Below the pieces are notes generated by a model. That model was not told where the DNA came from. It did not search any database and saw only the letters and a list, made by a program, of their open reading frames with translations. From contig CAISZK010000029.1 in assembly GCA_903889915.1 (NCBI GenBank), forward strand, positions 1 through 59,116: a DNA stretch of 59,116 nucleotides, in the 5' to 3' direction. Positions 7,746 through 43,499 of the stretch are shown here, one piece after another (the first letter of the stretch is position 1; each line of letters starts with the position of its first letter). This DNA comes from an uncultured Bacteroidota bacterium (GTDB taxonomy: Bacteria; Bacteroidota; Bacteroidia; Bacteroidales; CG2-30-32-10). A program made the position numbers and the translations under genes.

Positions 7746-7805
7746 TCAATGATTATTTTAAGCAGTAATTGATCTGTAATGGGCATTCTCTTGCGCTACT
7801 TCCGC

Positions 7806-7897
7806 CAATGACCAATGTCTCATTGACTATTGACTATTGACTATTGACAAATGACCAATGACTATTGACTATTGACTATTGACCAATGACCATTGAC
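7806..7897. repeat. Heptamer array (A/T)(A/T)TGAC(N) between convergent genes
   Basis: caatgaccaatgtctcattgactattgactattgactattgacaaatgaccaatgactattgac... Confidence 0.8.
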
Positions 7898-9571
7898 TTA
7901 TTTACAATGTTCTTCGTAAGCTGATTTCGCCTCATAATAGTTCAATTTCATTGCCTCTTCAAAATCCAGGCATGCTTCCGTTTTTTTGCCAAGAAGAATG
8001 CGCACAAAAGCACGTTTATAATAGGCTTCCGCCAAAGTTGAATCAAGTGCAACAGCTTTCGAAAAACTTAGATCAGATTTGTCGTATTGCTTATTGTACA
8101 TGTAGGCATAGCCCAGATCCATCTCTGTTTTGGCTAATTTGGGGTTAATGCTTAAAGCTTTATTGAGGTCCTGAATGGATGATTCATAATCCTCAAGAAT
8201 GTTATAATATTCAGATCTGGCAATATAGATTTGTATGCAGGCTGAATCAACCTTGATGGCTGCCTTGTAATCCGCAAAAGCTTTGGCGCTATCATCAAGC
8301 GCCCGGTAGAAATAGGCCTGAATCAGATAAGCCGGAATATATTTATTATTCAGTTCAAGGCTGTGAGCAATATCCGTTTGTGCACTGTCAATATTTTCTT
8401 TGCCTGCATAAGCCAACCCACGTAAATAGTAATAATTGCAATTATTCGGGTTTAGTTTCATTGCATCGGTATAGTCTCTTATAGCATCATTGAAATAACC
8501 TGTTTGAAGATAACAATTCCCCCTGCTGAATAAAATGAAACCTTCCGTTGGATTGAGTTCGGCAGCCCTGGTAAGATTATAAATTACACCCTGCAGATTT
8601 TTAAGTTTAATATTGATATAAGCACGTAACAGAAAAGACTGGCTGTCGTTGTTGTCAATTTTGATTGCCTTGCTCACATAGGTTATCGCTTTGTCATTTT
8701 CGCCAAGGACATAGTACATAAAAGCTTTGCTGTAAATGGCCGGGACGCTAAGCGAATCAATTTTTAAAGCGCTTTCAAAATCGTATTTCGCATATTCAAA
8801 TTGCTGCTGAAAACAATAGACATTCCCGCGGTAAACATAGGCCGGCAGATAGCCCGGGTTTATGGCAATCGCCTTCGTAAGATCATCGAGCGAACTGCTG
8901 AAATCTTCCATTGAATAGTATAGGATGCCCCGGTTTATAAGCGGGATGCAGTTCGTTGAATTCCCTGATTTGACAGCCGCCGAAAAATCGGCCAAAGCAG
9001 GTGTGCTTTTCTTCAAATTATAATTTACGATGCCCCTGTTATTATAAACATAAAGATCGCCATCGGTTTTTGAAAGATATTTCGTGAAAGCTTCAAGCGC
9101 CTTGTTGTAATTGCCGAGGCAGGTATATGCAAGTCCCAGGTTGTGGTAAGAATAAGTGTAATCAGAGTCGGTTTCAATGGCTATGAGCAGGTCGTGCAAA
9201 GCCTTTTCATGTTCACCAGTCATCAGATAAACATATCCCCGCAGGTTGTAAGCTTCCGCAAAATTAATGTCGGCAGCGATGGCATCAGTGATAGATGATT
9301 CTGCACGGGAATATTCCTTGTCACCGCACTGTTCAATTCCCTTTTCATAAAATTCTTTTGCTTTTTTTGAGACATGCGATTTTACTTCTTTTTCAAGTGA
9401 AACAGGAATATCCAACAAAATAAAGTTTGCTTTCCTTGTCATCCGCCAATTGAGTGTGTCCTGTGAAAAAAGAAGGGAGGGGAAAATGAGGACAATTGCA
9501 AACAGACAAACCCCGGGAAGATATTTTATTTTCCGGATTTTATAAAGGTTACTGTGTAAGCAAAAATGCAT
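7898..9571 (-). CDS. TPR repeat protein with an N-terminal membrane or signal segment
   Basis: Many 34-aa TPR motifs (…AEAYNLRGYVYL…, …YNNRGIVNY…). Confidence 0.75.
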   Translation of the reverse strand: MHFCLHSNLYKIRKIKYLPGVCLFAIVLIFPSLLFSQDTLNWRMTRKANFILLDIPVSLEKEVKSHVSKKAKEFYEKGIEQCGDKEYSRAESSITDAIAADINFAEAYNLRGYVYLMTGEHEKALHDLLIAIETDSDYTYSYHNLGLAYTCLGNYNKALEAFTKYLSKTDGDLYVYNNRGIVNYNLKKSTPALADFSAAVKSGNSTNCIPLINRGILYYSMEDFSSSLDDLTKAIAINPGYLPAYVYRGNVYCFQQQFEYAKYDFESALKIDSLSVPAIYSKAFMYYVLGENDKAITYVSKAIKIDNNDSQSFLLRAYINIKLKNLQGVIYNLTRAAELNPTEGFILFSRGNCYLQTGYFNDAIRDYTDAMKLNPNNCNYYYLRGLAYAGKENIDSAQTDIAHSLELNNKYIPAYLIQAYFYRALDDSAKAFADYKAAIKVDSACIQIYIARSEYYNILEDYESSIQDLNKALSINPKLAKTEMDLGYAYMYNKQYDKSDLSFSKAVALDSTLAEAYYKRAFVRILLGKKTEACLDFEEAMKLNYYEAKSAYEEHCK

Positions 9572-26116: not shown

Positions 26117-27415
26117 TTAAAAATTCCCAATTTCAGAAATTGCATACAGCGGCAAATTTATCAGCCAGTCCTCTTTCTTGTAATCAGACATTGAACTCCT
26201 GACAGCTATGACCGGGTTATACTTCTGGCAGAATACCTTTAAACTTTTAGCCTGCAAATTTTCTTCAGCTTTCACTTCTACCGGGATAACCTTTCCATTA
26301 TGCTGTATGATAAAATCAATTTCAGCAGTTGATTTTTCTGCTGACCAATAATAAACATTAAATTCTTTTTCAGAAACCAATTGCTGCAAAACATATTGTT
26401 CAGTGAGGGCTCCCTTAAACTCTTTAAAAATGGCATTACCTTCCAGTAATGTTTTGACATCAATGTTTCCCATTGCTGAAAGTAGTCCAATATCAACAAA
26501 AAATAATTTGAAAGAAGAAAAATCCAAATATGCTTTAAGCGGAATGGCACTGTTAGACACACGGCTGACTTTATGTATAAGACCACCGTCAATCAACCAA
26601 GCCATTGCTATTTCATAATCTTTTGCCCTGGTGCCTTCTTTAATGACACCATAAATAAACTTACGATTTTCTTTTGCCAATTGTGCAAGGACGGAGTTCC
26701 ATAACATTCTTACCTTAGGAACAATTTCATGAGGCGCATGTTTTGAAAAATCCAGTTCGTAAGCCTCCAAAATTTGTTTTTGTATCTCACGGACTTCTGC
26801 ATAATCATTACGCTCACGAAAGGCATTTACAACTTCTGGCATACCGCCGATAAAATAATATTGACGCAAAAGTTGAATATATTTTTGTTTAAAGGTTTTT
26901 ATTAAATCCCATTTTTTGTCCTCAAGAAGCGACACCAGATTTTTTTGCCCAAGAGCCGTCATAAATTCAGTAAGTCGCAATGGATGCAGATCCAGAAATT
27001 CCACTTTACCAACCGGGAAAGAGGTATGCCTGTGCAAAGCGACACCCAGTAAAGAGCCGGCAGCAAGTACATGATATCCGGGAGTGTTTTCATGAAAATA
27101 TTTTAGCGATGTGAGCGCTCCTTCTGCTTCCTGAATTTCATCAAGAATGATCAAGGTGTTGTTTTCATTGAATAATACGCCTGTTTCAATTTGCAAGGCT
27201 TCAACTATCCTGTCAATATTGAAATCCTCCTTAAAAATATTTTGAAGATGTTTGCTGCTCTCAAAATTGACATAAATACACTGTTCGTATTCCCGCTTTC
27301 CAAATTCTTTCATCAGCCAGGTTTTGCCGACCTGACGAGCACCTCTTAAAAGTAAGGGCTTTCTGGTTTTGGATCTTTTCCATCGTTTTAATATCTCTAT
27401 TTCGGCTCTTTCCAT
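26117..27415 (-). CDS. AAA family ATPase (AAA_14 + DUF4143 type)
   Basis: LLLRGARQVGKT Walker A and LIILDEIQ Walker B. Paralog of 39436-40773 and 42372-43499. Confidence 0.8.
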   Translation of the reverse strand: MERAEIEILKRWKRSKTRKPLLLRGARQVGKTWLMKEFGKREYEQCIYVNFESSKHLQNIFKEDFNIDRIVEALQIETGVLFNENNTLIILDEIQEAEGALTSLKYFHENTPGYHVLAAGSLLGVALHRHTSFPVGKVEFLDLHPLRLTEFMTALGQKNLVSLLEDKKWDLIKTFKQKYIQLLRQYYFIGGMPEVVNAFRERNDYAEVREIQKQILEAYELDFSKHAPHEIVPKVRMLWNSVLAQLAKENRKFIYGVIKEGTRAKDYEIAMAWLIDGGLIHKVSRVSNSAIPLKAYLDFSSFKLFFVDIGLLSAMGNIDVKTLLEGNAIFKEFKGALTEQYVLQQLVSEKEFNVYYWSAEKSTAEIDFIIQHNGKVIPVEVKAEENLQAKSLKVFCQKYNPVIAVRSSMSDYKKEDWLINLPLYAISEIGNF

Positions 27416-27816: not shown

Positions 27817-28863
27817 TTATTTTTTTCCTCCCGCAAGATCATATTCCAAATCAAATGGCTTTGCATACCGCGCCGAGGCTAATTTTAGTTTCTCTGCAAT
27901 TTTGTTCTTTAACCGCCGTGGAGCCAATACCTGCATAGATTCACCAAAGCCAAGTATCTCCCTTTCCAGTTCAAAATTCCATATTACCTTTATGGAAAAT
28001 ATCATTCCATTTTCATACTCTTTGACAATTTTTTGTGTAGAATGCAGGGGTTTTGTACAAATGTAAGGTGCGTTCACTTTGTCAACCCACAGAACAATGT
28101 TATAATCGCGTTGAGTGAGCCCTTTTGTGACGCCTATTACATCGTCATAATAAGTGTCAATATTGATGGTGGTGTTTTTTAAATATTTTTCCTTTGCTTC
28201 AGTGATGTCAATTATTCTGTCAAGAGCAAGTGTGAGTATGCTTTTGTTAGATTTTGCACCTAAAATAAACCAGCGGTTTCTGTATTCTTTCAGCAGGTAA
28301 GGGCTAAAGACAAACTTATTCGCTTCTCTTGCTTTGAATGATTTGTAGTTAATTTCGATGGCTTTGTTTGAAACGATAGCTTTGTGAATTGGGTCAATAA
28401 ATTCAAGGCCTTTCAGCAAATCGTTTTTCTCGAAATTGATATAAGCCTTTCCTTTGTGCTGCTGACTGAATAATTTATCTTCAAGTTTACTTACCATTAC
28501 TGTCAACTCCTGAAAGTATCCAAAACCCTTGAATTGCTTCAGCACAGCCACCACTTCATTGAGTGTGCCCAGATCCTGTTTTGTCAGTGGGACATTGCTA
28601 ATGCTGAATCCTTTTTCTGCATAAGTGTAGAATTTTTTATCTGTTACAATAATCGGTGCATTATAGCCCAGTTTCTCACTGCGCATATTTTGCAAATCAA
28701 GTTGTATTGCGCGTTTGCTCACACCCTGTGTGATTCCTTCATATTCGTACAACGCATCCGAACAAGCTTCGACAAGATCATCAAGGGTCCATTTGCGGAA
28801 ACGGTTTTGCAAACAGTTATCTATTGTTTTGTAGCGTATCAGTGCAAGTTTGTTTATTGACAT
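27817..28863 (-). CDS. WYL domain-containing transcriptional regulator (HTH-WYL)
   Basis: C-terminal ...NRWFILGAKSNKSILTLALDRI... WYL-type motif. N-terminal winged-helix-like region. Confidence 0.65.
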   Translation of the reverse strand: MSINKLALIRYKTIDNCLQNRFRKWTLDDLVEACSDALYEYEGITQGVSKRAIQLDLQNMRSEKLGYNAPIIVTDKKFYTYAEKGFSISNVPLTKQDLGTLNEVVAVLKQFKGFGYFQELTVMVSKLEDKLFSQQHKGKAYINFEKNDLLKGLEFIDPIHKAIVSNKAIEINYKSFKAREANKFVFSPYLLKEYRNRWFILGAKSNKSILTLALDRIIDITEAKEKYLKNTTINIDTYYDDVIGVTKGLTQRDYNIVLWVDKVNAPYICTKPLHSTQKIVKEYENGMIFSIKVIWNFELEREILGFGESMQVLAPRRLKNKIAEKLKLASARYAKPFDLEYDLAGGKK

Positions 28864-29319
28864 GGCTTTAATGTTTAGTATGAAGATTCAAAAAAGAGCG
28901 TAAAAAGCATTGCAATTATTTTAAAAATTTCCTGAAACCGGTTTCAATGAGTAAAAAAACACCTGTTTTTATTTGCCGGTTTTCTAAATCTACGCAATCT
29001 ACTTGCGCAATTGAAGGTATTTGACAAAAAACATGAAATTTTAATTTTACTAAAACCAATAGTTTAGCATGAAATATTCTGCAAAAGTAAAAATATTTTT
29101 CATTGCGCAATTCGGTTGCGCAGTACAGTATTTATTTTGCATCATCAAAATGATGAATCGTTCTTTGACTAAAAATATTTTCCTAAACAGGATAAAGATC
29201 TTCCTTTACCGGAAGGATATGAAATAATTTGAAAGGCCTCTGATGAGAGTTTCTTCAGGCTCCATAGTATCGTTAACCGTTGGTTTATGATATGCTGCCC
29301 GTAGATTTATCGCATATCA

Positions 29320-29550
29320 GTTTTGTTGTGTGTCGTGGGTTCGACTCCCACTCCGTGAAAGCGGATAACTCAGGCGGATAGAGTAACAACACTGCGCAGG
29401 TTCGAATCCTGCTCCCAATCAAAAATCGGGATAACTCAATTGGTAGAGTATTGGACTGTTAATCCAATGATGAAGAATGCCACTTCTGAAAAGGCAACCG
29501 GAAAAGAAAGGAATAATGTTGCTCTGTGGTTCAATCCACGATCAGGCCAT
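29320..29550 (+). other. Cluster of tRNA-derived fragments. No complete tRNA could be folded by eye; these may be pseudo-tRNAs or att remnants.
   Basis: T-arm plus acceptor-like segments GTGGGTTCGACTCCCAC, GCAGGTTCGAATCCTGCTCCCAATCA and GTGGTTCAATCCACGATCAGGCCA. D-arms ACTCAGGCGGATAGAGT and ACTCAATTGGTAGAGT. One anticodon arm TTGGA-CTGTTAA-TCCAA (GTT, Asn-like). Confidence 0.4.
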
Positions 29551-29878
29551 GGCTTGAGAGCATGCAGATACCGGCAGGAAAATTGCAAAATTGCAGATGG
29601 TCAGCAATTTCCTTTTACAACATTTCGTTTATCAAATGATGTAAAAGTAACAATGAAAAATCATAAAAAGTTTGTGCAATATTCCCGTCTTAAGCAGGCT
29701 TCCGCCACAGGAAGGATGAGCTTATTATTTCTTTCTTTATTAATGAAACCGAACAATCAGCATAGAAAAGCATAAGAAAAAAGATGTGAATTTATGCGGG
29801 TAACAAAAAAATAAAATGAAAAAAATTGATCAGCATAAGCAGTGCGGATCAGCGTAAAAACAACCTAAAAATAAAATT

Positions 29879-30985
29879 ATGAAAAGAGTAAGAATAGATG
29901 CCTACAATGTAGGCTTGGTTTTCAAGAAAAACAATTACAATAGAATTCTTCAACCGGGGGTTTACTGGCTTGGACTATCTGAAAGCATCAGTATTTTCAG
30001 CATGGCAAAACAATTCATTGCACCATGCAACCTCAACATTTTGCTTAATGATAAAGAATTCATGGATGCCACAATTTTCATAGAAATCAGGGATAACGAA
30101 ATCGCTCTGCAATATGAGAATGAACTTTTCGCTGGCGTTTTGACGCCGGGAAGATATGTTTTCTGGAAAGGACTTGTCAATTACAAATTCAATATTATTG
30201 ACCTGAACAATATTGAAATTGACAAGAACATTGAAAAATCCATTCTGTCAAGAAAGGAAGTAATTCCTTACATCAGGGTGGTCAATGTTGATTCTTATGA
30301 AAAATGTGTAATGTTCATTGATGGAAAATACGAAAAAACTCTTGAACCGGGAGCTTATCTTTTCTGGAAAAACATGACCACAATCAACGTTGCAAAAGTA
30401 GATATGAGAGCCATCCAGATGGAGATTTCAGGACAGGAAATTCTTACGAAGGATAAGGCAGCATTGAGGATCAATTTTTTTGTTCAATACAAAGTGGTTG
30501 ACGTAACAAAAGCGCTCGTGAACAACAAGGAATTCGAAAAACAACTTTATGTTTTGAATCAGTTAGCGCTTAGGGAATTTATCGGTGGTTACACGCTGGA
30601 TGAATTGCTTGAAAAGAAAGAGAACATCTCGCAATATGTTGTAGGTTCACTGAATGAAAAAGCCAAAGGGCTGGGAGTTTCAATAATTGGCTCGGGTATC
30701 AGGGATATTATTTTACCGGGCGATGTGAAAGATATCATGAATCAGGTGCTCGTAGCCGAAAAGAAAGCACAAGCCAACATTATCATGAGAAGGGAAGAAA
30801 CAGCCTCAACCAGAAGTTTGCTAAACACTGCCAAACTGATGGAAGAAAATTCAATGCTTTTCAAGTTAAAAGAAATGGAGTATGTTGAAAAAATTGCCGA
30901 GAAGATCAACAACATCTCTCTTTCAGGAAACAGCCTTCTGGTGGATCAGTTAAAACAAATTTTTGTTCCTGTGAAAAAACAATAA
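29879..30985 (+). CDS. SPFH/band-7 domain protein with three N-terminal ~45-aa beta-repeats
   Basis: C-terminal half (…ILTKDKAALRINFFVQYKVVDVTKAL…) is stomatin/HflK-like. N-terminal repeats end in PGxYxFW. Confidence 0.65.
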   Translation: MKRVRIDAYNVGLVFKKNNYNRILQPGVYWLGLSESISIFSMAKQFIAPCNLNILLNDKEFMDATIFIEIRDNEIALQYENELFAGVLTPGRYVFWKGLVNYKFNIIDLNNIEIDKNIEKSILSRKEVIPYIRVVNVDSYEKCVMFIDGKYEKTLEPGAYLFWKNMTTINVAKVDMRAIQMEISGQEILTKDKAALRINFFVQYKVVDVTKALVNNKEFEKQLYVLNQLALREFIGGYTLDELLEKKENISQYVVGSLNEKAKGLGVSIIGSGIRDIILPGDVKDIMNQVLVAEKKAQANIIMRREETASTRSLLNTAKLMEENSMLFKLKEMEYVEKIAEKINNISLSGNSLLVDQLKQIFVPVKKQ

Positions 30986-31050
30986 AAGTTCCAAGCTCCA
31001 AATTCCAAGCTCTCTCGCTTCCCTGGAATTTGGATTCTGGATCTTGTAAC

Positions 31051-31086
31051 TAGTGACTAATGACTATTGACTAATGACTGATGACA
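31051..31086. repeat. Heptamer (A/T)ATGAC(N) array
   Basis: tagtgactaatgactattgactaatgactgatgaca. Confidence 0.7.
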
Positions 31087-31096
31087 TTTCTCACAA

Positions 31097-32545
31097 ATGA
31101 TTAATTTTACAAACATGAAGAAGAATAAAATAAGCGGTGAAGACTTGTTGGCGATTGGCTATCCTGAGTTAAAAGTTATAGGGATCGCTTTGCAAATGAT
31201 TGATGAAAAATTCGGGGATTACGACAATGAAGATGTGCTGTCGTTGCTTACAGAGGTTCTGAAAGAACCACTGATTTTTGCAGACAGTGAAACATTTTCT
31301 CCGATCGCTACTGCTCTTATTGAATATAATGAAGCAAAATCCAGTGCAGAAGAGCTGGCGCTTAAAGACAACCCTATCCCCTATTCAATTTTCGGTAAAG
31401 AAAACATCGAAGAGGGAGCAATCATTCAGATGAATACTGCCATGAGCCTTCCTGTGACAGTTGCAGGAGCTTTAATGGCCGATGCACATCAGGGATATGG
31501 ATTGCCGATAGGCGGAGTACTTGCTGCGAACAATGCTGTTATTCCTTATGGTGTGGGTGTTGATATAGGCTGCAGAATGTGTCTGAGTATATACGATATT
31601 CCTGAAAATTTTTATTTCGACAATCAAAGTAAGTTCAAAAGAGAGCTGATAGCTTATACAAAATTTGGAGCAGGAGCAGGCTGGCATGGTAAAGATAAAG
31701 CGGATCATGCCATTCTTGAAAGAGAAGAATTCAGATCATTTCCACTGGTTAAAAATTTATTTGATAAGGCTGCTTCACAATTGGGAACTTCCGGAGGAGG
31801 AAACCATTTTGTTGAATGGGGAATTATTGAAATGAATGTAGAGGACGAAGTTCTTAAAGTTCCTAAAGGGAAATATCTGGCTTTGCTTTCGCATTCCGGT
31901 TCCAGAGGCTTTGGTGCAATGCTTGCAAACCACTACACCAGGCTTGCAAAAGAACTTTGTGCTTTGCCACAATCAGCAAAAAATCTGGCTTATCTCAGCC
32001 TCGATACAAGTGAGGGGCTGGAATATTGGCTGGCAATGAATCTTGCGGGAGATTATGCCTCGGCTTGTCATGAAATCATTCACAGCAGAATTACAAAGGC
32101 TATTGGAGGTACAGTTCTTGCAAAAGTGGAAAATCACCACAATTTTGCCTGGAAAGAAAAATACAACGATCAGGAAGTAATTGTGCACAGGAAAGGTGCG
32201 ACTCCTGCATCCAAAGGTACATTCGGCATCATTCCCGGTTCAATGACCGCTCCCGGATTTCTTGTAAAAGGTAAAGGAGAACCATCATCCATCAATTCAG
32301 CTTCACACGGAGCAGGAAGGCAGATGAGCAGAACACAGGCAATAAAAACTTTTACAAAAAACGATATGAGAGCCATACTTAAAGAACATGGAGTTACATT
32401 GATAGGTTCAGGTATTGATGAAGTGCCGATGGCATATAAAAATATAGAGGCTGTAATGTCAGCACAGTCGGGATTGGTTGATATCATTGCCAAATTCACA
32501 CCAAAAATGGTGAGAATGGCTGATGATGGATCGAGGGAAGATTGA
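31097..32545 (+). CDS. rtcB: RtcB family RNA 3'-phosphate ligase
   Basis: Signature motifs HQGYGLPIGGV, GGGNHFVEWG, HSGSRGFG and ENHHNFAW, with GAGRQMSR. Confidence 0.9.
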   Translation: MINFTNMKKNKISGEDLLAIGYPELKVIGIALQMIDEKFGDYDNEDVLSLLTEVLKEPLIFADSETFSPIATALIEYNEAKSSAEELALKDNPIPYSIFGKENIEEGAIIQMNTAMSLPVTVAGALMADAHQGYGLPIGGVLAANNAVIPYGVGVDIGCRMCLSIYDIPENFYFDNQSKFKRELIAYTKFGAGAGWHGKDKADHAILEREEFRSFPLVKNLFDKAASQLGTSGGGNHFVEWGIIEMNVEDEVLKVPKGKYLALLSHSGSRGFGAMLANHYTRLAKELCALPQSAKNLAYLSLDTSEGLEYWLAMNLAGDYASACHEIIHSRITKAIGGTVLAKVENHHNFAWKEKYNDQEVIVHRKGATPASKGTFGIIPGSMTAPGFLVKGKGEPSSINSASHGAGRQMSRTQAIKTFTKNDMRAILKEHGVTLIGSGIDEVPMAYKNIEAVMSAQSGLVDIIAKFTPKMVRMADDGSRED

Positions 32546-32912
32546 TTAATATTAATGAACTTCCCTATTCACCTCTATCATATTTTATCTTCATTACTTT
32601 CTGATCCCATTCCATCAATGACCATCAATGAGGGTGTGCATGTGGCGGGATAAACGCGGCAATGACCTTCAATTTTAATTGCAGAATTGTTTCAATTGCT
32701 TTTTGATTACTTTGTTTCCTAATTCAATTTTCGTACTATTTTTTCTCACTTTCACTTTTTGCTGTAAGCAATAAAGAAATGATTGTTGACAATTATTTCT
32801 AAGAAAGTAAGCCTGGAATCTGAAAATTATTTAATTTAGCCTATTCTTAGTTGGATTAATTTTTGTTACAAACCCAAGAAATCATTGTATTCAACACAAC
32901 TTAACCTTAAAG

Positions 32913-35075
32913 ATGAAAAAAGAATCCCCCAGGCAAAATAAGTCCGGCCAAATTGAAAACAATATATTGCGGCCAAAAGATCATGAAGGAGAAGAATTAA
33001 ATGGTCCCATAAGGGAGTTAAAGCAGAGCCTCTATAAAGCAAAAAATAAAAAGGGTGAAATTACACCGGGAAAGCCGGTGGAAAACGACCACCGTTTATT
33101 TAATTACCTTTTGCGTTTTAATGAAAAGGGTGCCAAAATTGAGGAACAAAGGATAGAAAATAATTCTGTAAAGTATCATCTCTTCTACAATGAATTTGGA
33201 AAAACTTCAAAAGAGATATACTATGAAAAATCAGGTGAGATAAATTTTATTGCCCATCATACATTTAATGATATAGGCTTGCAACTGGAAACCAATGTTG
33301 TTAAAGCTGACGGCACATGGATGTGGAAAGAGGTGCATGAATACAATGAGAAAAACCTGTTGATTTCAATAAAACATAGTTATCCCAATGAAAAAATGAA
33401 CAGGTTAAACACATACGGCTATGATGAACGTGGCAACAAAACAGAATCAAAAGGTATTAATGCAGACGGGAAAGTTTGGTCGTGGGACATCTGGAAATAT
33501 GATAGTCACAATAATGCCACCGAATTGAAAAGGATGAATTATGATGGGAAATGGGAAACATCTTATTTCCCCAGGGAATATGACGGAAATGGGGAATTAG
33601 TAAAACAAAATTATTTTGTACCGAAAAAGGATTCCGAAATTTACGAATTCAGTTGTGAAAGGGATAACCACGGTAACTGGATTGAAAAAGTTGAATATTA
33701 CAAAAATCTTCCTGTAAACTTTTATGTGAGGGAAATTTGTTATTTCGGTGAAGAGCCGAAGAAGAGTTCAATAAACAAAGTTGAAACGTCAGAAAAACTA
33801 TCAAACATGGAAAATAATTTGGATAATGCAAATGATAACACTGTTCATTCAGAGGAAACTGTAGGAAATGCTTCATACCCTCAATTGAGTTATGAGCAGG
33901 CTAAGTGGTTGGCAGAGGGAAGTTCCCAGGATTTTAATTCGCTGCGCTATTATATCATTATCAACAACGACATGCCTTCATCCTACACCTATGTAGGTAC
34001 GGATATTGAAGCAATAGCGCTGCTTGAAGAATTGAAGGAGAACATGGATGCACAATGCCTTCACACAAATATTTTGAATTATAGCGAGGATCGTGAAGAC
34101 CGTCTAATACGCTACACATTGTCATTCCCTGACAAGGGTTATCTGCTGAATGCAATTCAAATTCAAGCACGTGATGAGTATGAATATGATGTGCCTTCTT
34201 TTATTAAGAGTTACCACAAATTCAATGATGATAATGTTTACACAAGTCAGATAGCATTACTACGACCGGCAGACGCCTCCGGTAAAAGGAATAAGGATTT
34301 TGAAGAAGAACTACAGGAGTATATTGATAAATGTACTTTAGAGAAAGTCCCGGAGAAACCCTCAATATACATGGTTGAATCTGGTGGCAATGGCTACTGT
34401 CTGCGTTCACATGCCATCAATGATGATTTCGAAATAAAAAGTCTGGATACAAATTATGGCTATGGGTTTGAAAAGTTTCATAACGAGTTAATGGGGCGTT
34501 TTAAGTCAGAAACTAAAGGACTGATTCTTTTTCATGGTGAACCGGGAACAGGCAAAACCTATTATATTCGCCACCTGTTGCGCACCATGACAAGCAATGG
34601 TAAAGTGGTTATTTATATGCCGCCAAACATGGTTGACTACCTTATAGAACCTGGCTTTATGACATTTCTTTCCTCTGAAATTTCCAACTTTTCCGATGAG
34701 GGATATTTTTGCGCTCTGCTTATTGAAGACGCCGAACCTCTGCTTGCAGCACGTCAGGGTGATGTTCGCATTCAGGGGGTTTCAAACCTTTTGAATATGA
34801 CCGATGGATTGTTGAACGACATGCTCGATCTGCAGATAATTTGCACATTCAACGTAAAACTGAAAGAATTGGATAAGGCTCTGCTTCGTCCCGGAAGGCT
34901 TCTTGCCCGCAAAGAGTTCAAACGGCTGAGTGCCCTTGATGCAAATATACTGGGGCAGCAGTTAGGAGTGAAACATCATTTTACTGCACCTGCAACTATA
35001 GCCGAAGTATATGCAATGCTCAACAACAAAGGCACGGTTTTGCACGGAGTTGGGGATAGGGATGAAGAGGAATAA
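32913..35075 (+). CDS. AAA+ ATPase (classic clade, RPGRL) with a ~480-aa N-terminal repeat-containing domain of unknown function
   Basis: C-terminal Walker A FHGEPGTGKTY and Walker B LLIEDAEPLL, with ...ALLRPGRLLARKEF. The N-terminal domain has repeated ...DGK.W.W..YD..GN... modules. Confidence 0.75.
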   Translation: MKKESPRQNKSGQIENNILRPKDHEGEELNGPIRELKQSLYKAKNKKGEITPGKPVENDHRLFNYLLRFNEKGAKIEEQRIENNSVKYHLFYNEFGKTSKEIYYEKSGEINFIAHHTFNDIGLQLETNVVKADGTWMWKEVHEYNEKNLLISIKHSYPNEKMNRLNTYGYDERGNKTESKGINADGKVWSWDIWKYDSHNNATELKRMNYDGKWETSYFPREYDGNGELVKQNYFVPKKDSEIYEFSCERDNHGNWIEKVEYYKNLPVNFYVREICYFGEEPKKSSINKVETSEKLSNMENNLDNANDNTVHSEETVGNASYPQLSYEQAKWLAEGSSQDFNSLRYYIIINNDMPSSYTYVGTDIEAIALLEELKENMDAQCLHTNILNYSEDREDRLIRYTLSFPDKGYLLNAIQIQARDEYEYDVPSFIKSYHKFNDDNVYTSQIALLRPADASGKRNKDFEEELQEYIDKCTLEKVPEKPSIYMVESGGNGYCLRSHAINDDFEIKSLDTNYGYGFEKFHNELMGRFKSETKGLILFHGEPGTGKTYYIRHLLRTMTSNGKVVIYMPPNMVDYLIEPGFMTFLSSEISNFSDEGYFCALLIEDAEPLLAARQGDVRIQGVSNLLNMTDGLLNDMLDLQIICTFNVKLKELDKALLRPGRLLARKEFKRLSALDANILGQQLGVKHHFTAPATIAEVYAMLNNKGTVLHGVGDRDEEE

Positions 35076-37723: not shown

Positions 37724-38635
37724 ATGAAAAATTCAAGTTATGATTATTTCCAGGAAGAACTGGATAATCATGCAAATCAATTAAATCAAATCCCATCTCT
37801 CAACTTCCACCTAACCGGCTCCTGCAACATGCGCTGCCGTTACTGTTTTTCTCATTATGAGAAAGACCATGCTGAACTTGCTATGTCTATGCCCGAACAG
37901 GCACAGATAAAGCTTATCAGAGAATTGTTCACCATTGGCTTTCGCAAGATATCTTTTGCCGGTGGTGAGCCTACCTTGTGCAGACACCTGCCACGGTTGG
38001 TCCAGTTTTCAAAAAATATTGGTTTCACAACCATGCTTGTCACCAATTCATCCCGAATTGATGATGCGTTATTACGAAGTTTTCATGGAAGTCTCGATTG
38101 GCTTTGCATCAGCATTGACAGCCTGAAAACTTCAACAAATCTAGAGATAGGGCGCTGCCTGTCCAATGGTTTTGTTCTATGCGAGGATTATTACAAGCAA
38201 ATTATTGAGCTTGCCAGAGAGCATGGTTTGCGCTTAAAAATAAACACTGTGCTAAGCCGGTTCAACCTCCATGAAAACTTTACCGGTTTCCTGTTGTGGG
38301 CAAAACCCGAACGATGGAAGGTGTTCCAGGTACTGCCTGTTGTTGGGCAAAATGAAACTGCTTTCAATGAATGTTCCATCACTGAGGATGAAATGAGTCT
38401 GTTTCTGACAAAGCATGCATCACTGCAAAAACTGTTCGATATAATTCCGGAAAGAAACAATGACATGAAAGGCTCTTATGTGATGGTAAATCCTTCCGGA
38501 AGATTCTACTGCAACATCAACGGGCAGCATACCTACAGCGATCAGGTACTTGAAGCAGGAGCAAAAATGGCGATTGCTCAAATGTCTTATGATTTCGCGA
38601 AATTCATCAATCGTCAGGGTCTTTATAAATGGTAA
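37724..38635 (+). CDS. Prokaryotic viperin (pVip), a radical SAM enzyme that synthesises ddhNTP
   Basis: CNMRCRYCF (CxxxCxxC). ISFAGGEPTL, LKINTVLSRFN, RWKVFQVLPV and DMKGSYVMVN...LYKW align along the full length to the RSAD2 core. Confidence 0.85.
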   Translation: MKNSSYDYFQEELDNHANQLNQIPSLNFHLTGSCNMRCRYCFSHYEKDHAELAMSMPEQAQIKLIRELFTIGFRKISFAGGEPTLCRHLPRLVQFSKNIGFTTMLVTNSSRIDDALLRSFHGSLDWLCISIDSLKTSTNLEIGRCLSNGFVLCEDYYKQIIELAREHGLRLKINTVLSRFNLHENFTGFLLWAKPERWKVFQVLPVVGQNETAFNECSITEDEMSLFLTKHASLQKLFDIIPERNNDMKGSYVMVNPSGRFYCNINGQHTYSDQVLEAGAKMAIAQMSYDFAKFINRQGLYKW

Positions 38636-38646
38636 CCAATAAACTT

Positions 38647-39183
38647 ATGAAACACAAAATCACTATCAGCGGAAAAGCCGGTTCCGGTAAAAGTACAGTC
38701 TGAAAATTGCTTGCAGAAAAACTTCAGGTTCCATTCCATTCTGTTGGCAACACCACACGCGGGTATGCAAAAAGAAACTTCGGACTTGGCATCATAGAAT
38801 TTCAGCAGTATTGCCTGTCACATCCTGAAGTGGATAAAAAACTGGATGAATATTTCAGTAAAATGGGGCATGAAATGGATGGCTTTGTAATGGACTACAG
38901 GCTGGGATTTCATTTTATTCCTGAGGCATTTCATGTCTTGCTTACGGTGCCTGATGAAATAACTGCTCACCGAGTATTGGCAGCCAAAAGAAATGACGAG
39001 TTTACAACAACTGATTATGAAACGATATTGCTAGAACTAAAGACCAGGAATGCTAAGATGCGCGAGAGGTTTATTAATCAATATAGCGTGGATTACGAAG
39101 ACAAGGTCAATTACAATCTGGTATTAGATGCATCCAAAATAGACCCATTTGAATTAGTTCGCAAGATCAAGGATTCTTTTTAA
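38647..39183 (+). pseudogene. Cytidylate (CMP/nucleotide) kinase-like gene associated with pVip, interrupted by one in-frame TGA at 38701-38703
   Basis: MKHKITISGKAGSGKSTV-TGA-KLLAEKLQVPFHSVGNTTRGY... P-loop and lid are in one frame. The ORF track resumes at TTG 38707. Confidence 0.7.
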
Positions 39184-39435: not shown

Positions 39436-40773
39436 ATGTTCGATAGGTTAATTATTAGCAGTTTGAAAACCTGGGCTGACAGCAGTCCCTGCAAACCACT
39501 TGTGCTAAGGGGGGCACGACAGGTTGGAAAAACAACATTGGTCAAAGAATTTGCCAAAGAGTTTTCAGTTTTTATTCATCTCAATCTGGAAAAAGAAGAA
39601 CAAAGACGAATCTTTTCCTCAGGCAAAAACTTCCCTGAACTACTTGATGCCATTTTTTATTTGAGCGGAAAAGAGAGGAATAAAGGCAAAACTTTGATAT
39701 TTATTGATGAAATTCAGAACTCGCCAGAAGCTATCGGTTACTTGCGCTATTTTTACGAAGAAGCGCCCGAATTATTTGTCATAGCTGCCGGATCCCTGCT
39801 TGAAAGCATGCTCAACCGGAATATTTCTTTTCCTGTGGGCAGAGTTGACTATATGGCTTTACGTCCATGCTCATTTCTGGAATTTATAGGAGCCTTGGGT
39901 GAACAAGTATCTGCCGAAATGATCACCAGCGGCGCTGTTCCTGGCTTTGCACATGAGAAACTCAAATCATTGTTTCATCGTTATGCACTGATTGGAGGCA
40001 TGCCCGAAATAGTAGCGGTTTATGCTGCTACCGGTGACCTGATCCGGCTGAAAAAGACGTACCAAAGCCTGCTTGCCGGCTTCAGCGATGATGTGGAAAA
40101 GTATGCAAGTAACAATGCAATGATTCACTACATCAGGCATATATTCAAAACAGGGTTTTCTTTTGCCGGGCAAAGGATAAAGTTTGCGAATTTCGGCGTT
40201 TCCGATTATCGCTCGCGTGAAATGGGAGAAGCATTTCGCACACTTGAAAAGACTATGCTGCTCGAATTGATCTATCCTGCCTCGTCTGTCAGCATTCCCA
40301 TCCTGTCTAATTATCGTAAATCACCGAGATTACAATGGGTTGATACAGGACTGGTAAACTATGCTGCAGGCGTACAGCATGAGATATTCACTTCACCAAG
40401 CATAATGACAGCATGGAAGGGCATCATAGCCGAGCATATTACAGGGCAGGAACTATTGGCTTATGATAATGATGTATTGAGCAAAAGACATTTCTGGACC
40501 CGCGAAGAAAAAAACTCAATGGCTGAAATTGATTTCATTTTTAATTATAATGGTATCATCATTCCCGTTGAAGTGAAGTCAGGCGATACTGGCAGGTTGA
40601 GGTCACTACATTTGTTTATGGATGCCGCATCACATAAAATTGCTGTAAGAATTTGCCAGGAGAAGTTTGCTGTAATTGATTTAAAAACCATAAAAGGAAA
40701 ACCATTCCGGCTTATCAGTATTCCTTTTTACCAAATTTCGCAAATCAGTCAAATTTTGGATAAATACGTGTAA
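39436..40773 (+). CDS. AAA family ATPase (AAA_14 + DUF4143 type)
   Basis: LVLRGARQVGKTTL and LIFIDEIQ. Paralog of 26117-27415. Confidence 0.8.
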   Translation: MFDRLIISSLKTWADSSPCKPLVLRGARQVGKTTLVKEFAKEFSVFIHLNLEKEEQRRIFSSGKNFPELLDAIFYLSGKERNKGKTLIFIDEIQNSPEAIGYLRYFYEEAPELFVIAAGSLLESMLNRNISFPVGRVDYMALRPCSFLEFIGALGEQVSAEMITSGAVPGFAHEKLKSLFHRYALIGGMPEIVAVYAATGDLIRLKKTYQSLLAGFSDDVEKYASNNAMIHYIRHIFKTGFSFAGQRIKFANFGVSDYRSREMGEAFRTLEKTMLLELIYPASSVSIPILSNYRKSPRLQWVDTGLVNYAAGVQHEIFTSPSIMTAWKGIIAEHITGQELLAYDNDVLSKRHFWTREEKNSMAEIDFIFNYNGIIIPVEVKSGDTGRLRSLHLFMDAASHKIAVRICQEKFAVIDLKTIKGKPFRLISIPFYQISQISQILDKYV

Positions 40774-42371: not shown

Positions 42372-43499
42372 ATGATAACCCGATTTATAAAAAAACAGAT
42401 ACTTGATTCGGTTGCAAAACCAAATAAAGTGACAGGAATTTTTGGCGCCCGCCGAACAGGAAAAACATTCCTGATGGAGGAAATAAGAAAAGAACTTAAG
42501 CGTGAAAAGATCCTGATGGTACAAGGCGAAAATCTTGATGTGGCTGAAATACTCTCAAGTCGCCGGCTTAGCCTGTTGCAACAAATGGTGCAGGGTTACA
42601 AATACCTCTTCATTGACGAAGCCCAGAAAATTCCTGATATTGGTACTAACCTAAAACTAATGGTTGATTCCATCAAAGGACTGCACATCCTTGTTTCAGG
42701 CTCTTCATCTTTCGATCTGAAAAACAAAATCGGCGAACCGTTGACCGGAAGGAGTAAATACTTTTATTTATATCCCATCGCACAGTTGGAATTGGACGAG
42801 GATTTCTTCACAGCAAAAACTTCACTTGAGAACCGGCTGATATATGGCAGCTATCCACAGGTACTCACAGCCACCAATAATAAAGAACGCATGGAAATTC
42901 TAACATCTTTGCGTGATGGTTATTTGCTGAAAGACATGCTGGAATTGGACAATCAGAAGGACACTATTTTCGTTTTTAACCTGCTTCGGTTAATTGCTTT
43001 CCAGGTTGGCAATGATATTTCCTTCACCGAACTTGCTTCAAATTTGAATGTGAACAAACTTACTGTGATGCGTTACCTTGACCTGCTTGAAAAATGTTAT
43101 GTGCTCTTTTCTCTGAGGGGTTTCAGCCGTAACCTGCGCAAAGAATATACGAAAAGTCCACGCTATTACTTTTGGGACAACGGCATCAGGAATATTTTAA
43201 TTGCAAATTTAAACCCACCCAATATCAGAGATGATATCGGTAAACTATGGGAAAACTACTGCATTTCCGAGCGGTTGAAGAAGTGTCATTACACACGAAA
43301 AACTGTAAACCATTATTTCTGGAGGACCTACGATCAGAAAGAAATAGACCTTGTTGAGGAAGGTTCCGGCAAACTAAAAGGGTATGAAATAAAATGGACA
43401 AAATCGAAAGTAAAGCCACCAAAGGATTTTCTGGAAGCATACGGCAATGCTTCATTTCACGTGATCAACAGGGATAATTACCTTGATTTTATTACTTAA
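42372..43499 (+). CDS. AAA family ATPase (AAA_14 + DUF4143 type)
   Basis: GIFGARRTGKTFL and LFIDEAQK. Confidence 0.8.
   Translation: MITRFIKKQILDSVAKPNKVTGIFGARRTGKTFLMEEIRKELKREKILMVQGENLDVAEILSSRRLSLLQQMVQGYKYLFIDEAQKIPDIGTNLKLMVDSIKGLHILVSGSSSFDLKNKIGEPLTGRSKYFYLYPIAQLELDEDFFTAKTSLENRLIYGSYPQVLTATNNKERMEILTSLRDGYLLKDMLELDNQKDTIFVFNLLRLIAFQVGNDISFTELASNLNVNKLTVMRYLDLLEKCYVLFSLRGFSRNLRKEYTKSPRYYFWDNGIRNILIANLNPPNIRDDIGKLWENYCISERLKKCHYTRKTVNHYFWRTYDQKEIDLVEEGSGKLKGYEIKWTKSKVKPPKDFLEAYGNASFHVINRDNYLDFIT

What the first reader, a model, noticed from the sequence alone, without database searches (positions are those of the whole stretch)
27817..35075. Candidate new stress/defence module: a divergent WYL regulator beside a cluster of a triple-beta-repeat SPFH protein, RtcB RNA ligase and an N-terminal-repeat AAA+ ATPase
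Three co-directional genes (SPFH 29879-30985, RtcB 31097-32545, repeat-domain AAA+ 32913-35075) sit divergently from a WYL-domain regulator (27817-28863). The spacer between them is filled with tRNA-derived fragments. RtcB repairs cleaved RNA (2',3'-cP or 3'-P ends). SPFH/band-7 proteins scaffold membrane protease and ATPase complexes. Known WYL regulators (BrxR, CapW, PafBC, DriD, WYL1) are nucleic-acid-fragment sensors that gate defence or damage-response operons. The canonical rtcBA regulator RtcR, a sigma54 activator with a CARF domain, is absent here. The cluster sits in a defence-island context (pVip, AAA/DUF4143 ATPases, ORF6N). I am not aware of a described defence or repair system that combines SPFH, RtcB and a classic-clade AAA+ protein bearing a ~480-aa repeat domain. 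A WYL-controlled RNA-repair or abortive-infection module is a plausible reading.
Basis: partly seen in the sequence, partly recalled or inferred. Interest (0 to 1): 0.8.

Follow-up and report, generated by a model that had tools for sequence, protein, structure and literature searches.

The report
WYL-gated SPFH–RtcB RNA-repair module with tRNA-like RNA
This is a conserved Bacteroidota RNA-repair unit (a WYL regulator, a structured tandem tRNA-like RNA, a soluble SPFH protein and the RNA ligase RtcB) of a kind already predicted in 2016, and the neighbouring 720-aa AAA+ gene is not a conserved part of it.

Summary
All four ORFs and their domains are real. The proposed four-gene system is only partly real.

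**Conserved unit.** It comprises a divergent WYL/WCX regulator, a structured non-coding RNA, an SPFH protein and RtcB. Among 80 related Bacteroidota loci:
- the RNA is present in about 74;
- RtcB is present in 52;
- a WYL orthologue is present in 28.

**The spacer.** It is not tRNA debris. It encodes a tandem, permuted tRNA-like (YrlA-like) RNA plus a pseudoknot, with strong covariation (26 of 37 pairs compensatory). A TGCGCA-N7-TGCGCA operator tracks the WYL gene (21/28 loci with WYL against 5/52 without).

**The 720-aa AAA+.** It is an RHS/YD-like repeat domain fused to a roughly 395-aa core. That family occurs as solo genes or tandem paralogue arrays and is never beside SPFH or RtcB (0/10 contexts; 0/80 SPFH loci). 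A distant paralogue of about 360 aa does accompany SPFH in 24/80 loci.

**Verdict.** Band-7/RtcB/tRNA-like RNA repair systems were predicted by Burroughs & Aravind (2016), so this is a new member of a known, experimentally untested kind.

The parts
27817..28863 (-). WYL-WCX transcription regulator (348 aa), divergent from the RNA/SPFH/RtcB unit
   Evidence: Pfam WYL 42 bits and WCX 44 bits. PADLOC WYL models score 85 bits. Full-length orthologues (50-68% identity) sit in the same divergent position in 28/80 SPFH loci. Similarity to solved WYL-domain regulators is weak, E about 0.005. No HTH was detected by Pfam.
28991..29009 (.). Candidate WYL operator 1: TACGCA-N7-TGCGCA, on the regulator-proximal side
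   Evidence: The motif [AG]CGCA-N7-TGCG[CT]A occurs only twice in the 59-kb window, both times in this spacer. It is found in 21/28 WYL loci against 5/52 non-WYL loci, always upstream of SPFH or of rtcB.
29104..29122 (.). Candidate WYL operator 2: TGCGCA-N7-TGCGCA, about 14 nt upstream of a conserved TTTG...CATC element (29136-29146) that looks like a Bacteroidota -7 promoter box
   Evidence: The position relative to the TTTG element is conserved across WYL-type loci. The promoter assignment is inferred, not shown.
29322..29469 (+). Tandem permuted tRNA-like (YrlA-like) ncRNA core. Outer stem 29326-29329/29386-29389 encloses T-arm1 29335-29351, closed acceptor-like hairpin1 29352-29365 and D-arm1 29368-29384. 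These are followed by T-arm2 29396-29412, closed acceptor-like hairpin2 29413-29431, D-arm2 29434-29449 and an anticodon-like arm 29451-29467 (loop CUGUUAA).
   Evidence: Sub-threshold Rfam YrlA hits (37 and 27 bits, gathering score 69) and a tRNA hit of 35 bits. RNAalifold gives 21/33 pairs compensatory. The hand-written structure has 99.4% of cells paired, 26/37 pairs compensatory and 0/500 shuffles reaching it; slid controls pair 35-47%. The covariance model R1 scores 142 bits here and finds the RNA at the same position in about 74/80 loci.
29472..29496 (+). Hairpin GAAG-AAUGCCA-CUUC (29472-29486) whose loop UGCC pairs with GGCA (29493-29496) across an A-rich linker: candidate H-type pseudoknot at the 3' side of the RNA
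   Evidence: Loop and tail covary across loci (CACC/GGTG, CAGC/GCTG, CATC/GATG, CGCC/GGCG, AACC/GGTT, GATT/AATC). Own-locus pairing of at least 4 bp occurs in 87% of loci against 40% for cross-locus pairs.
29879..30985 (+). Soluble SPFH/Band-7 ('slipin family') protein, 368 aa: two extra N-terminal beta units, the SPFH domain and long C-terminal helices
31097..32545 (+). RtcB RNA ligase (482 aa), catalytically intact
   Evidence: Pfam RtcB 268 bits. Metal-ligand and nucleophile motifs align with P. horikoshii RtcB: DxH...GYG, DIgC, GNHF, SHSGSRG, HHN, HGAGR. It lies downstream of SPFH in 52/80 loci.
32913..35075 (+). 720-aa AAA+ protein: a neighbour whose membership in the module is doubtful. 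RHS/YD-like repeat domain aa 33-277, disordered linker aa 287-330, conserved core aa 328-720.
   Evidence: Only 16 full-length homologues were found. The core is 68% identical to the stand-alone 414-aa protein P0137. The N-domain model matches Rhs, teneurin and Tc-toxin YD repeats at E about 1e-7. 0/10 homologue contexts contain SPFH, RtcB or WYL, and the five held as DNA contain no tRNA and no R1 match. 0/80 SPFH loci carry this type. There is a 367-nt gap after rtcB and no operator upstream. It is nevertheless homologous over its full length to the SPFH-linked short AAA+ family (hhalign probability 100%, E 7e-53).

Best explanation
**What it is.** The locus is an RNA-damage or translational-stress response unit. 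Its parts are a WYL-WCX regulator, a tandem tRNA-like non-coding RNA, a soluble cage-type SPFH protein and the RtcB ligase.

**How it most likely works.**
1. The WYL protein binds two TGCGCA-N7-TGCGCA operators in the divergent promoter region. It holds the RNA-SPFH-rtcB transcript in check and probably regulates its own gene. *The operator association is shown; the binding and its sign are inferred.*
2. RNA becomes damaged. Possible causes are tRNA or rRNA cleaved by anticodon nucleases, ribotoxins, toxin RNases or translation-blocking antibiotics. A nucleic-acid ligand then binds the WYL domain and releases expression. *Inferred from other WYL regulators and from the analogous RtcR.*
3. The tRNA-like RNA associates with the oligomeric SPFH protein to form a ribonucleoprotein scaffold. 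This would be analogous to Ro60 with Y RNA, or to vault protein with vault RNA. *Inferred from near-universal co-occurrence.*
4. The scaffold presents or protects broken tRNA-like substrates, and RtcB reseals 3'-P or 2',3'-cyclic-P ends to 5'-OH ends. *RtcB's catalytic motifs are shown; its substrates are inferred.*

**The AAA+ gene.** The 720-aa AAA+ downstream is a separate island gene from a polymorphic AAA+ family. It is at most an optional accessory.
For: - **Core co-occurrence in 80 SPFH loci.** The RNA sits at a fixed position upstream of SPFH in about 74 loci (57 at >=80 bits; 8 of these were used to build the model). RtcB is in 52 loci and WYL in 28.
- **RNA structure.** 99.4% of cells are paired and 26/37 pairs are compensatory. 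Shuffled and slid controls fall far below. The pseudoknot covaries.
- **Operator.** It is found in 21/28 WYL loci against 5/52 non-WYL loci, and only two copies exist in the 59-kb window. Extra copies lie just upstream of rtcB in L007, L010, L011 and L046.
- **Related loci add classic RNA-repair parts.** These are two RlaP nucleotidyltransferases, a YkuK-type RNaseH-like protein, a short AAA+ and tRNA arrays.
- **RtcB active-site motifs are intact**.
- **SPFH fold.** It matches cage-forming stomatin, HflK/C and prohibitin, and has no membrane helix.
- **Citrobacter parallel.** It has rtcR, a spacer, a slipin gene and a nucleotidyltransferase in the same layout.
- **Literature.** Band-7 + RtcB + tRNA-like RNA was predicted as a repair system (10.1101/312249). 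In Anabaena a tRNA array, rtcB, a slipin gene and an AAA ATPase are co-derepressed under translational stress (PMC10272220 and PMC8421152).
Against: - There are no expression, binding or ligation data; every functional step is inferred.
- Pfam did not detect an HTH in the WYL protein, and its similarity to solved WYL regulators is weak (E about 0.005).
- Whether WYL represses or activates cannot be told from sequence.
- At least about 14 SPFH loci with enough downstream sequence lack RtcB in cis, so the SPFH-RNA pair may have a role that does not need RtcB.
- The RNA might be a cis leader or a nuclease decoy instead of an SPFH cofactor.
- The AAA+ is a full-length paralogue of the AAA+ that does accompany SPFH elsewhere, so a functional tie here cannot be excluded.
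- All 80 comparison loci are the best-scoring Bacteroidota relatives, which makes this a biased sample.
Confidence: 0.6

Rival explanations
1. WYL, SPFH, RtcB and the 720-aa repeat-domain AAA+ form one new four-gene defence or abortive-infection system, and the AAA+ is an integral effector or remodeller.
For: - The four genes are adjacent, and three are co-directional in a defence-island context.
- The AAA+ core is homologous over its full length to the short AAA+ found beside SPFH in 24/80 loci.
- PADLOC has no model for SPFH, RtcB or this AAA+.
Against: - 0/80 SPFH loci carry a 720- or 414-type AAA+.
- 0/10 contexts of that family contain SPFH, RtcB or WYL; the five held as DNA also lack tRNAs and R1 matches. 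The family instead forms solo genes or tandem paralogue arrays.
- There is a 367-nt gap after rtcB and no WYL operator upstream of the AAA+.
- The system kind was already predicted in 2016.
- No toxin or effector that would kill the cell is present.
Confidence: 0.12
2. The tRNA-like RNA is not an SPFH cofactor. It would be either a decoy or sponge that soaks up anticodon nucleases, or a cis-acting leader that senses tRNA-related signals and controls downstream SPFH-rtcB expression.
For: - The RNA lies in the 5' region upstream of SPFH, about 300-480 nt from the start codon, in nearly all loci.
- It keeps an anticodon-like arm.
- Related loci carry whole arrays of real tRNAs at the same place.
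- A decoy role has been proposed for YrlA (PMC7790460) and for array tRNAs (PMC8421152).
- In the window, a hairpin followed by a U-tract at about 29577-29622 could end or attenuate the transcript (read directly from the sequence).
Against: - The RNA co-occurs with SPFH much more tightly (about 74/80) than with RtcB (52/80) or tRNA arrays (37/80). This points to an SPFH-specific partnership.
- The closed acceptor-like hairpins and the pseudoknot are conserved although a simple decoy would not need them.
- No riboswitch-like expression platform was identified.
Confidence: 0.2
3. The spacer is decayed remains of a former tRNA array with no function of its own, and WYL, SPFH and RtcB are adjacent by chance in a variable island.
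For: ARAGORN finds no tRNA in the window. Many related loci have real tRNA arrays at that position.
Against: - Compensatory changes occur in 26/37 pairs, with 99.4% of cells paired across loci.
- The same architecture is found at the same position in about 74/80 loci.
- WYL synteny holds in 28 loci and the operator co-varies with the WYL gene.
Confidence: 0.03

Closest known systems
[quoted passage not shown]
   Same: An SPFH/Band-7 protein is encoded next to RtcB and next to a tRNA-like non-coding RNA. Related loci add RlaP nucleotidyltransferases. The proposed role is an RNP scaffold for RNA repair.
   Different: - Here the RNA is a tandem of two permuted tRNA-like modules plus a pseudoknot, not a single tRNA look-alike.
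- A WYL regulator with a defined operator sits divergently upstream.
- I could not read the original paper, so I cannot say how much of this it already describes.
- The system has never been validated experimentally.
rsr-yrlBA-rtcBA operon of Salmonella (Ro60 + Y RNAs + RtcB/RtcA, activated by RtcR)
   Same: It has RtcB with a tRNA-mimicking ncRNA (a T-arm, acceptor and D-arm module enclosed by a stem), a putative RNA-binding scaffold protein, and a divergent ligand-sensing regulator. It is induced by damaged tRNA (PMC7790460).
   Different: - The window has no Ro60/TROVE, RtcA or RtcR.
- SPFH replaces Ro60, and WYL replaces the CARF-sigma54 activator.
- The RNA reaches only 37 bits against Rfam YrlA (gathering score 69) and lacks the Ro-binding helix.
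Anabaena PCC 7120 TrcR translational-stress regulon and tRNA L-arrays (PMC10272220, PMC8421152)
   Same: The gene families match: tRNA array, rtcB, a slipin family protein and an AAA family ATPase. All are co-derepressed when translation is inhibited. This parallels the clustered tRNA array / AAA+ / SPFH / RtcB loci seen here in Bacteroidota.
   Different: - The genes are dispersed in Anabaena but clustered here.
- The regulator is a ribbon-helix-helix repressor, not a WYL protein.
- I could not test whether the Anabaena slipin and AAA proteins are orthologous to these.
- The window itself has no real tRNA genes.
WYL-domain transcription regulators (PafBC, DriD, BrxR, CapW)
   Same: The protein has WYL + WCX domains, is encoded divergently from the genes it presumably controls, and has repeat operators in the shared promoter region. 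Its closest solved sequences are deposited only as 'WYL domain-containing protein', 'DeoR-family transcriptional regulator' and 'Transcriptional regulator-like protein'. From memory these are DriD (7u02, 7tzv, 8tp8) and PafBC (7p5x, 9fnd).
   Different: - Sequence similarity is very weak (E about 0.005).
- Pfam detects no HTH.
- The controlled genes are for RNA repair, not DNA-damage or phage-defence functions.
- The ligand is unknown.
Eukaryotic vault particle (major vault protein + vault RNA)
   Same: The domain order matches: beta-repeat units, then an SPFH-like domain, then a long helix. The protein is also paired with a small structured RNA. MVP is the hit that aligns the most residues of the model.
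   Different: - There are only 2-3 beta units, against nine in MVP.
- No evidence of cage formation exists.
- This is a resemblance, not membership.

Membership tests
Band-7/SPFH-RtcB-tRNA-like RNA repair system (Burroughs & Aravind 2016) | SPFH/Band-7 gene adjacent to an RtcB ligase gene, recurring across genomes | tested here: met
   The two genes are 111 nt apart in the window. RtcB lies downstream of SPFH in 52/80 loci.
Band-7/SPFH-RtcB-tRNA-like RNA repair system (Burroughs & Aravind 2016) | A tRNA-like non-coding RNA encoded next to the Band-7 gene | tested here: met
   A covarying tandem tRNA-like RNA lies at 29322-29496 and is present upstream of SPFH in about 74/80 loci.
Band-7/SPFH-RtcB-tRNA-like RNA repair system (Burroughs & Aravind 2016) | Actual RNA repair activity and an RNA-protein complex | not testable with these tools
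   This needs biochemistry. According to 10.1101/312249, the b7a-tRNA itself had not been validated experimentally.
RtcB RNA ligase family | Conserved metal ligands and the histidine nucleophile motif | tested here: met
   MaDaHqGYG, GVDIgC, GGGNHF, SHSGSRG, HHN and HGAGR align with P. horikoshii and T. thermophilus RtcB. Pfam scores 268 bits.
Canonical rtcBA/RtcR operon | RtcR (CARF + sigma54 activator) and RtcA cyclase present | tested here: not met
   Neither was found among the window ORFs scanned with Pfam.
SPFH / stomatin-type ('slipin') proteins | Band_7 domain and SPFH fold followed by an oligomerising helix | tested here: met
   [not shown]
SPFH / stomatin-type ('slipin') proteins | N-terminal membrane anchor (hydrophobic hairpin or TM helix) | tested here: not met
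   The model is beta-strand from residue 2, with two extra beta units instead of a hydrophobic helix. No dedicated TM predictor was run.
WYL-domain transcription regulators | WYL domain followed by a WCX domain | tested here: met
   PF13280 42 bits and PF25583 44 bits.
WYL-domain transcription regulators | N-terminal (winged) helix-turn-helix DNA-binding domain | tested here: inconclusive
   Pfam gives no HTH hit at E<=0.01 for aa 1-150. That region is conserved in orthologues. No structure was predicted.
WYL-domain transcription regulators | Specific operator near the controlled genes | tested here: met
   TGCGCA-N7-TGCG(C/T)A is in 21/28 WYL loci against 5/52 without WYL, and only in the relevant spacers. 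Binding itself was not tested.
Rfam YrlA (RF02553) / bacterial Y RNA | Reaches the family gathering score; Ro60-binding helix; adjacent rsr (TROVE) gene | tested here: not met
   It scores 37.1 and 27.3 bits against a gathering score of 69, and only model positions 23-86 match. No TROVE protein is in the window.
Genuine tRNA | Cloverleaf whose 5' and 3' ends pair in an open acceptor stem | tested here: not met
   ARAGORN finds none. The Rfam tRNA hit (35 bits) lacks a normal T-arm. The acceptor-like stems are closed hairpins placed between a T-arm and a D-arm.
Known anti-phage defence systems (PADLOC-DB v2) | Any component matching a defence-system model | tested here: not met
   SPFH and RtcB have no hit. 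The AAA+ has only a 19-bit P-loop match. The WYL protein matches generic CRISPR-associated WYL models.
SPFH-linked short AAA+ (about 360 aa) of Chitinophagaceae-type loci | Same architecture and a position next to SPFH, the YkuK-like gene or tRNA arrays | tested here: not met
   The 720-aa protein is only 42% identical over the ATPase domain and carries an extra RHS/YD-like domain. Its own family is never beside SPFH (0/10 contexts). It is, however, homologous over its full length.

The most novel reading that the evidence does not exclude
The soluble SPFH protein has a vault-protein-like order of domains (beta-repeats, SPFH, long helix). It may assemble with the tandem tRNA-like RNA into a bacterial vault-like or Ro/Y-like ribonucleoprotein cage. 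That cage would capture cleaved tRNAs for RtcB and would be switched on by a WYL sensor of damaged RNA. The RNA would be a new structured RNA family that is absent from Rfam and widespread in Bacteroidota.
Probability: 0.2. Interest if true: 0.75.

Novelty: new member of a known kind. Interest (0 to 1): 0.4.

Why it matters
- **An untested prediction becomes testable.** Band-7/RtcB/tRNA-like RNA systems were predicted a decade ago and have not been tested. This analysis supplies a concrete Bacteroidota model with exact coordinates for the RNA, a covariation-backed secondary structure including a pseudoknot, a candidate operator and a candidate regulator.
- **Links to other systems.** The same SPFH-RNA core is tied to large tRNA arrays, RlaP enzymes and a dedicated AAA+ in related genomes. 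The closest experimentally studied parallels are the translational-stress regulon of Anabaena and the RtcR operon of enterobacteria.
- **What SPFH might be doing.** If the SPFH-RNA partnership is real, it would give the SPFH fold a cytoplasmic, RNA-linked role outside membranes. It would also offer a bacterial analogue for thinking about vault particles.
- **A correction for catalogues.** The 720-aa AAA+ should not be entered in defence-system catalogues as part of this module.

Tried and rejected
- **Defence catalogues.** PADLOC has no model for SPFH, RtcB or the AAA+.
- **'tRNA debris' reading.** Rejected because of covariation and positional conservation.
- **AAA+ as a conserved partner.** Rejected after 10 homologue contexts and 80 SPFH loci.
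- **'Generic unrelated AAA'.** Also rejected. hhalign shows full-length homology to the SPFH-linked AAA+ family, so the two are sister families.
- **Promoter and terminator scans.** Sigma70-type sites were no more frequent than in shuffles, so the scan was uninformative for this organism.
- **Single-sequence folding.** It gave only z = -1.65 and mispaired the two D-arms with each other. I relied on the comparative evidence instead.
- **Enterobacterial slipin loci.** Model R1 and Rfam gave only a weak T-arm-like match (10-11 bits), so they do not carry the same RNA family.
- **Phage collection.** No full-length SPFH homologue was found.
- **Burroughs & Aravind 2016.** The paper could not be read because it is not held.
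- **RlaP preprint and Makarova 2014.** Neither added anything on Band-7 or on WYL with RtcB.
- **A paralogue BLAST script** failed on a file path and was not repeated.

Full report

Pfam confirms the following assignments:

| Coordinates | Strand | Assignment |
|---|---|---|
| 27817-28863 | - | WYL + WCX |
| 29879-30985 | + | Band_7/SPFH |
| 31097-32545 | + | RtcB |
| 32913-35075 | + | classic AAA domain at aa 538-668 |

The surroundings are Bacteroidota chromosome, with T9SS sorting domains, a 2-oxoacid dehydrogenase complex, Dxr and RseP. A variable island runs from about 26 to 43.5 kb. It holds three DUF4143/PDC-S01 ATPases, an ORF6N fragment, DUF1643, and pVip with a kinase-like gene. No RtcR, RtcA or Ro60/TROVE gene was found among the ORFs scanned. 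The descriptive part of the finding therefore holds, subject to the corrections in sections 2 and 5.

**2. The spacer holds a structured RNA, not tRNA debris**

ARAGORN finds no tRNA anywhere in the window. Rfam gives a tRNA hit at 29425-29491 (35 bits). It also gives two sub-threshold hits to YrlA, the bacterial Y-RNA-like family, at 29327-29389 and 29395-29449.

BLASTN shows that 29325-29450 is conserved at a fixed distance upstream of SPFH in dozens of genomes. Alignment reveals this architecture:
- A 4-bp outer stem encloses T-arm 1, a closed acceptor-like hairpin and D-arm 1.
- These are followed by T-arm 2, a second closed acceptor-like hairpin, D-arm 2 and an anticodon-like arm.

The evidence for this structure is strong:
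- RNAalifold finds 21 of 33 pairs with compensatory changes.
- My full hand-written structure has 99.4% of cells paired and 26 of 37 pairs compensatory.
- None of 500 shuffles reaches it, and slid controls pair only 35-47%.
- Directly 3' lies a hairpin (29472-29486) whose loop pairs with 29493-29496 across an A-rich linker. Loop and tail covary across loci, and pairing of at least 4 bp occurs in 87% of own-locus comparisons against 40% of cross-locus ones.

A covariance model (R1) finds this RNA at the canonical position in about 74 of 80 SPFH loci. 57 score at least 80 bits, and 8 of those were training sequences. R1 finds no match in the seven AAA+ homologue loci searched (L001-L006 and L087). 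No Rfam family reaches its gathering score except the misleading tRNA hit.

**3. Which genes travel together?**

The SPFH protein belongs to a large 'slipin family' clade that is 58-72% identical over its full length. I fetched 80 genomic loci and scored them by tblastn and ORF clustering.

| Feature | Loci out of 80 |
|---|---|
| Tandem tRNA-like RNA upstream of SPFH | about 74 |
| RtcB downstream of SPFH | 52 |
| Full-length WYL orthologue, divergent upstream | 28 |
| YkuK-type RNaseH-like protein (PF04308) | 30 |
| Short AAA+ of about 360 aa | 24 |
| Two RlaP 'RNA repair pathway' nucleotidyltransferases, downstream of SPFH (between SPFH and RtcB where RtcB is present) | 8-9 |
| Radical SAM protein | 7 |
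| At least one tRNA gene | 55 |
| Three or more tRNA genes (up to 20, co-oriented) | 37 |

The window belongs to the compact WYL-type variant that has no genuine tRNA.

**4. The regulator**

In WYL-type loci the spacer carries two palindromic hexamers 13 bp apart, TGCGCA-N7-TGCG(C/T)A. They lie about 14 nt upstream of a conserved TTTG...CATC element that resembles a Bacteroidota -7 box.
- The motif is in 21/28 loci with WYL against 5/52 without it.
- It always lies upstream of SPFH, and in four loci also just upstream of rtcB.
- In the whole 59-kb window it occurs only at 28991-29009 and 29104-29122.

This is good comparative evidence that the WYL protein controls the RNA-SPFH-rtcB unit. Whether it represses or activates cannot be read from the sequence.

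The protein is only weakly similar to solved WYL-domain regulators (E about 0.005). Their deposited names are generic; from memory they are DriD- and PafBC-type. Pfam sees no HTH.

In Citrobacter freundii a full-length slipin homologue (33% identical) sits divergently from rtcR and is followed by a nucleotidyltransferase. That is the same layout, with the CARF/sigma54 activator in the position of WYL.

**5. The 720-aa AAA+**

Only 16 full-length homologues exist among 5.8 billion clusters. The protein has three parts:
- **aa 33-277:** beta-hairpin repeats. The model has pLDDT 76.8. Foldseek matches Rhs, teneurin and Tc-toxin YD repeats at E about 1e-7. Pfam RHS_repeat is sub-threshold.
- **aa 287-330:** a disordered linker.
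- **aa 328-720:** a conserved core, 68% identical to the stand-alone 414-aa protein P0137. The family is large, with 1,683 hits at E<=1e-10.

I examined ten distinct contexts of this family. Seven were 720-type and three were 414-type. None contains SPFH, RtcB or WYL, and the five held as DNA (L001, L002, L005, L006, L087) have no tRNA and no R1 match. Six are tandem arrays of paralogues with different N-termini, some beside GmrSD or HEPN/MNT genes. A further, solo context is phage-like. No SPFH locus has this type. In the window the gene follows rtcB after 367 nt and has no operator upstream.

There is a complication. A profile-profile comparison shows that the core is homologous over its full length to the short AAA+ that does accompany SPFH (probability 100%, E 7e-53). 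The two are sister families. I conclude that the adjacency here is most likely incidental within the island, and I leave about 10-25% for a functional tie.

**6. The proteins of the core**

RtcB keeps every catalytic motif aligned with P. horikoshii RtcB.

**7. Mechanism**

*Shown by the data:*
- the gene and RNA composition of the module;
- its conservation across loci;
- the RNA secondary structure;
- the association between the operator and the WYL gene;
- an intact RtcB active site.

*Inferred:*
- WYL senses a nucleic-acid signal of RNA damage and gates transcription.
- The tRNA-like RNA binds the oligomeric SPFH protein to form a scaffold, as Y RNA does with Ro60.
- RtcB reseals cleaved tRNA or rRNA.

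The main rival is that the RNA acts as a nuclease decoy or as a cis leader.

**8. Comparison with what is known**

Burroughs & Aravind (2016) predicted RNA-repair systems that combine Band-7, RtcB and a tRNA-like RNA. They noted that YrlA-like RNAs occasionally sit beside Band-7 genes. I take this from 10.1101/312249, because the original paper is not held. A later review cites that paper for WYL domains in the context of 2',3'-cyclic RNA ends, so the WYL link may also have been anticipated.

In Anabaena a tRNA L-array, rtcB, a slipin gene and an AAA ATPase are co-derepressed under translational stress by a different (RHH) repressor.

The locus is therefore a new member of a known, computationally predicted kind. 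The features that may be additions are the tandem RNA architecture with its pseudoknot, the operator, and the tight SPFH-RNA coupling.

**9. Verdict**

Novelty: new member of a known kind. Interest: 0.4.

Noticed in passing
L008, L009, L078, L081, L037, L038, L023, L066 and others (upstream of SPFH at about 6001): SPFH-RtcB loci in Bacteroidota often carry co-oriented arrays of up to 20 tRNA genes. 37/80 loci have at least 3. Recurrent anticodons are Asp, Gln, His, Arg-ACG, Lys-UUU, Asn, Tyr, Phe, Ser and Trp. From my own knowledge, many of these are classic anticodon-nuclease targets. The usual gene order is tRNAs, YkuK-like RNaseH, short AAA+, the RNA, SPFH, (RlaP x2), RtcB.
   Followed up: partly
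window 32913-35075; L005 1026-9167; L087 4305-12486; L090 1061-5362: The 720-aa protein belongs to a polymorphic AAA+ family. A conserved core of about 395 aa is fused to variable N-terminal domains, often RHS/YD-like repeats. The family commonly forms tandem arrays of 2-4 paralogues, some next to GmrSD or HEPN/MNT genes, and one solo member lies in phage-like DNA. Its function is unknown, and it could be a defence-related family in its own right.
   Followed up: partly
L007 7164-7181, L010 7316-7333, L011 3431-3448, L046 7195-7212: A further copy of the TGCGCA-N7-TGCG(C/T)A operator lies between SPFH and rtcB in some WYL-type loci. This suggests a separately regulated internal promoter for rtcB. 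The window has no such copy.
   Followed up: no
L088 (Citrobacter freundii NZ_CP151862.1) 4960-8913; L089 (E. coli CP061233.1) 6998-8922: Enterobacteria carry a full-length homologue of this soluble slipin followed by a nucleotidyltransferase. In Citrobacter it sits divergently from rtcR. The spacer holds a T-arm-like GGGUUCGAUUCCC element, but neither Rfam nor R1 matches it.
   Followed up: partly
window 29525-29541 and 29577-29622: Downstream of the conserved RNA there is another T-arm-like hairpin (GUGGUUCAAUCCAC), which the 14-sequence spacer alignment does not show as conserved. Further on, a long hairpin is followed by a U-tract. Related loci also have a U-rich tract there. It may terminate or attenuate transcription before SPFH.
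   Followed up: no
window 29440-29775 (+): A 111-aa TTG-start ORF overlaps the 3' part of the structured RNA and has no Pfam hit. It is most likely spurious.
   Followed up: partly
window 26117-27415(-), 39436-40773(+), 42372-43499(+): Three paralogous AAA_14/DUF4143 ATPases lie in one island. The one tested against PADLOC (26117-27415) matches PDC-S01 at up to 606 bits. They flank the RNA-repair unit and the pVip gene.
   Followed up: no
window 37724-39183 (+): A prokaryotic viperin (pVip; NCBIfam viperin_w_prok 281 bits) is followed by a small protein with a sub-threshold match to the cytidylate-kinase-like family (26.3 bits against a cutoff of 28).
   Followed up: no
window 508-1470, 2459-3478, 3532-4494, 4839-7745 (+): A run of secreted proteins carries T9SS C-terminal sorting domains (Por_Secre_tail). 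Two of them are exactly 320 aa. This supports the Bacteroidota origin of the window.
   Followed up: no
SPFH model of window 29879-30985: The domain order (beta units, SPFH, long helix) together with a partner RNA echoes the major vault protein with vault RNA. MVP aligns the most residues of any PDB hit, although with a modest score.
   Followed up: partly
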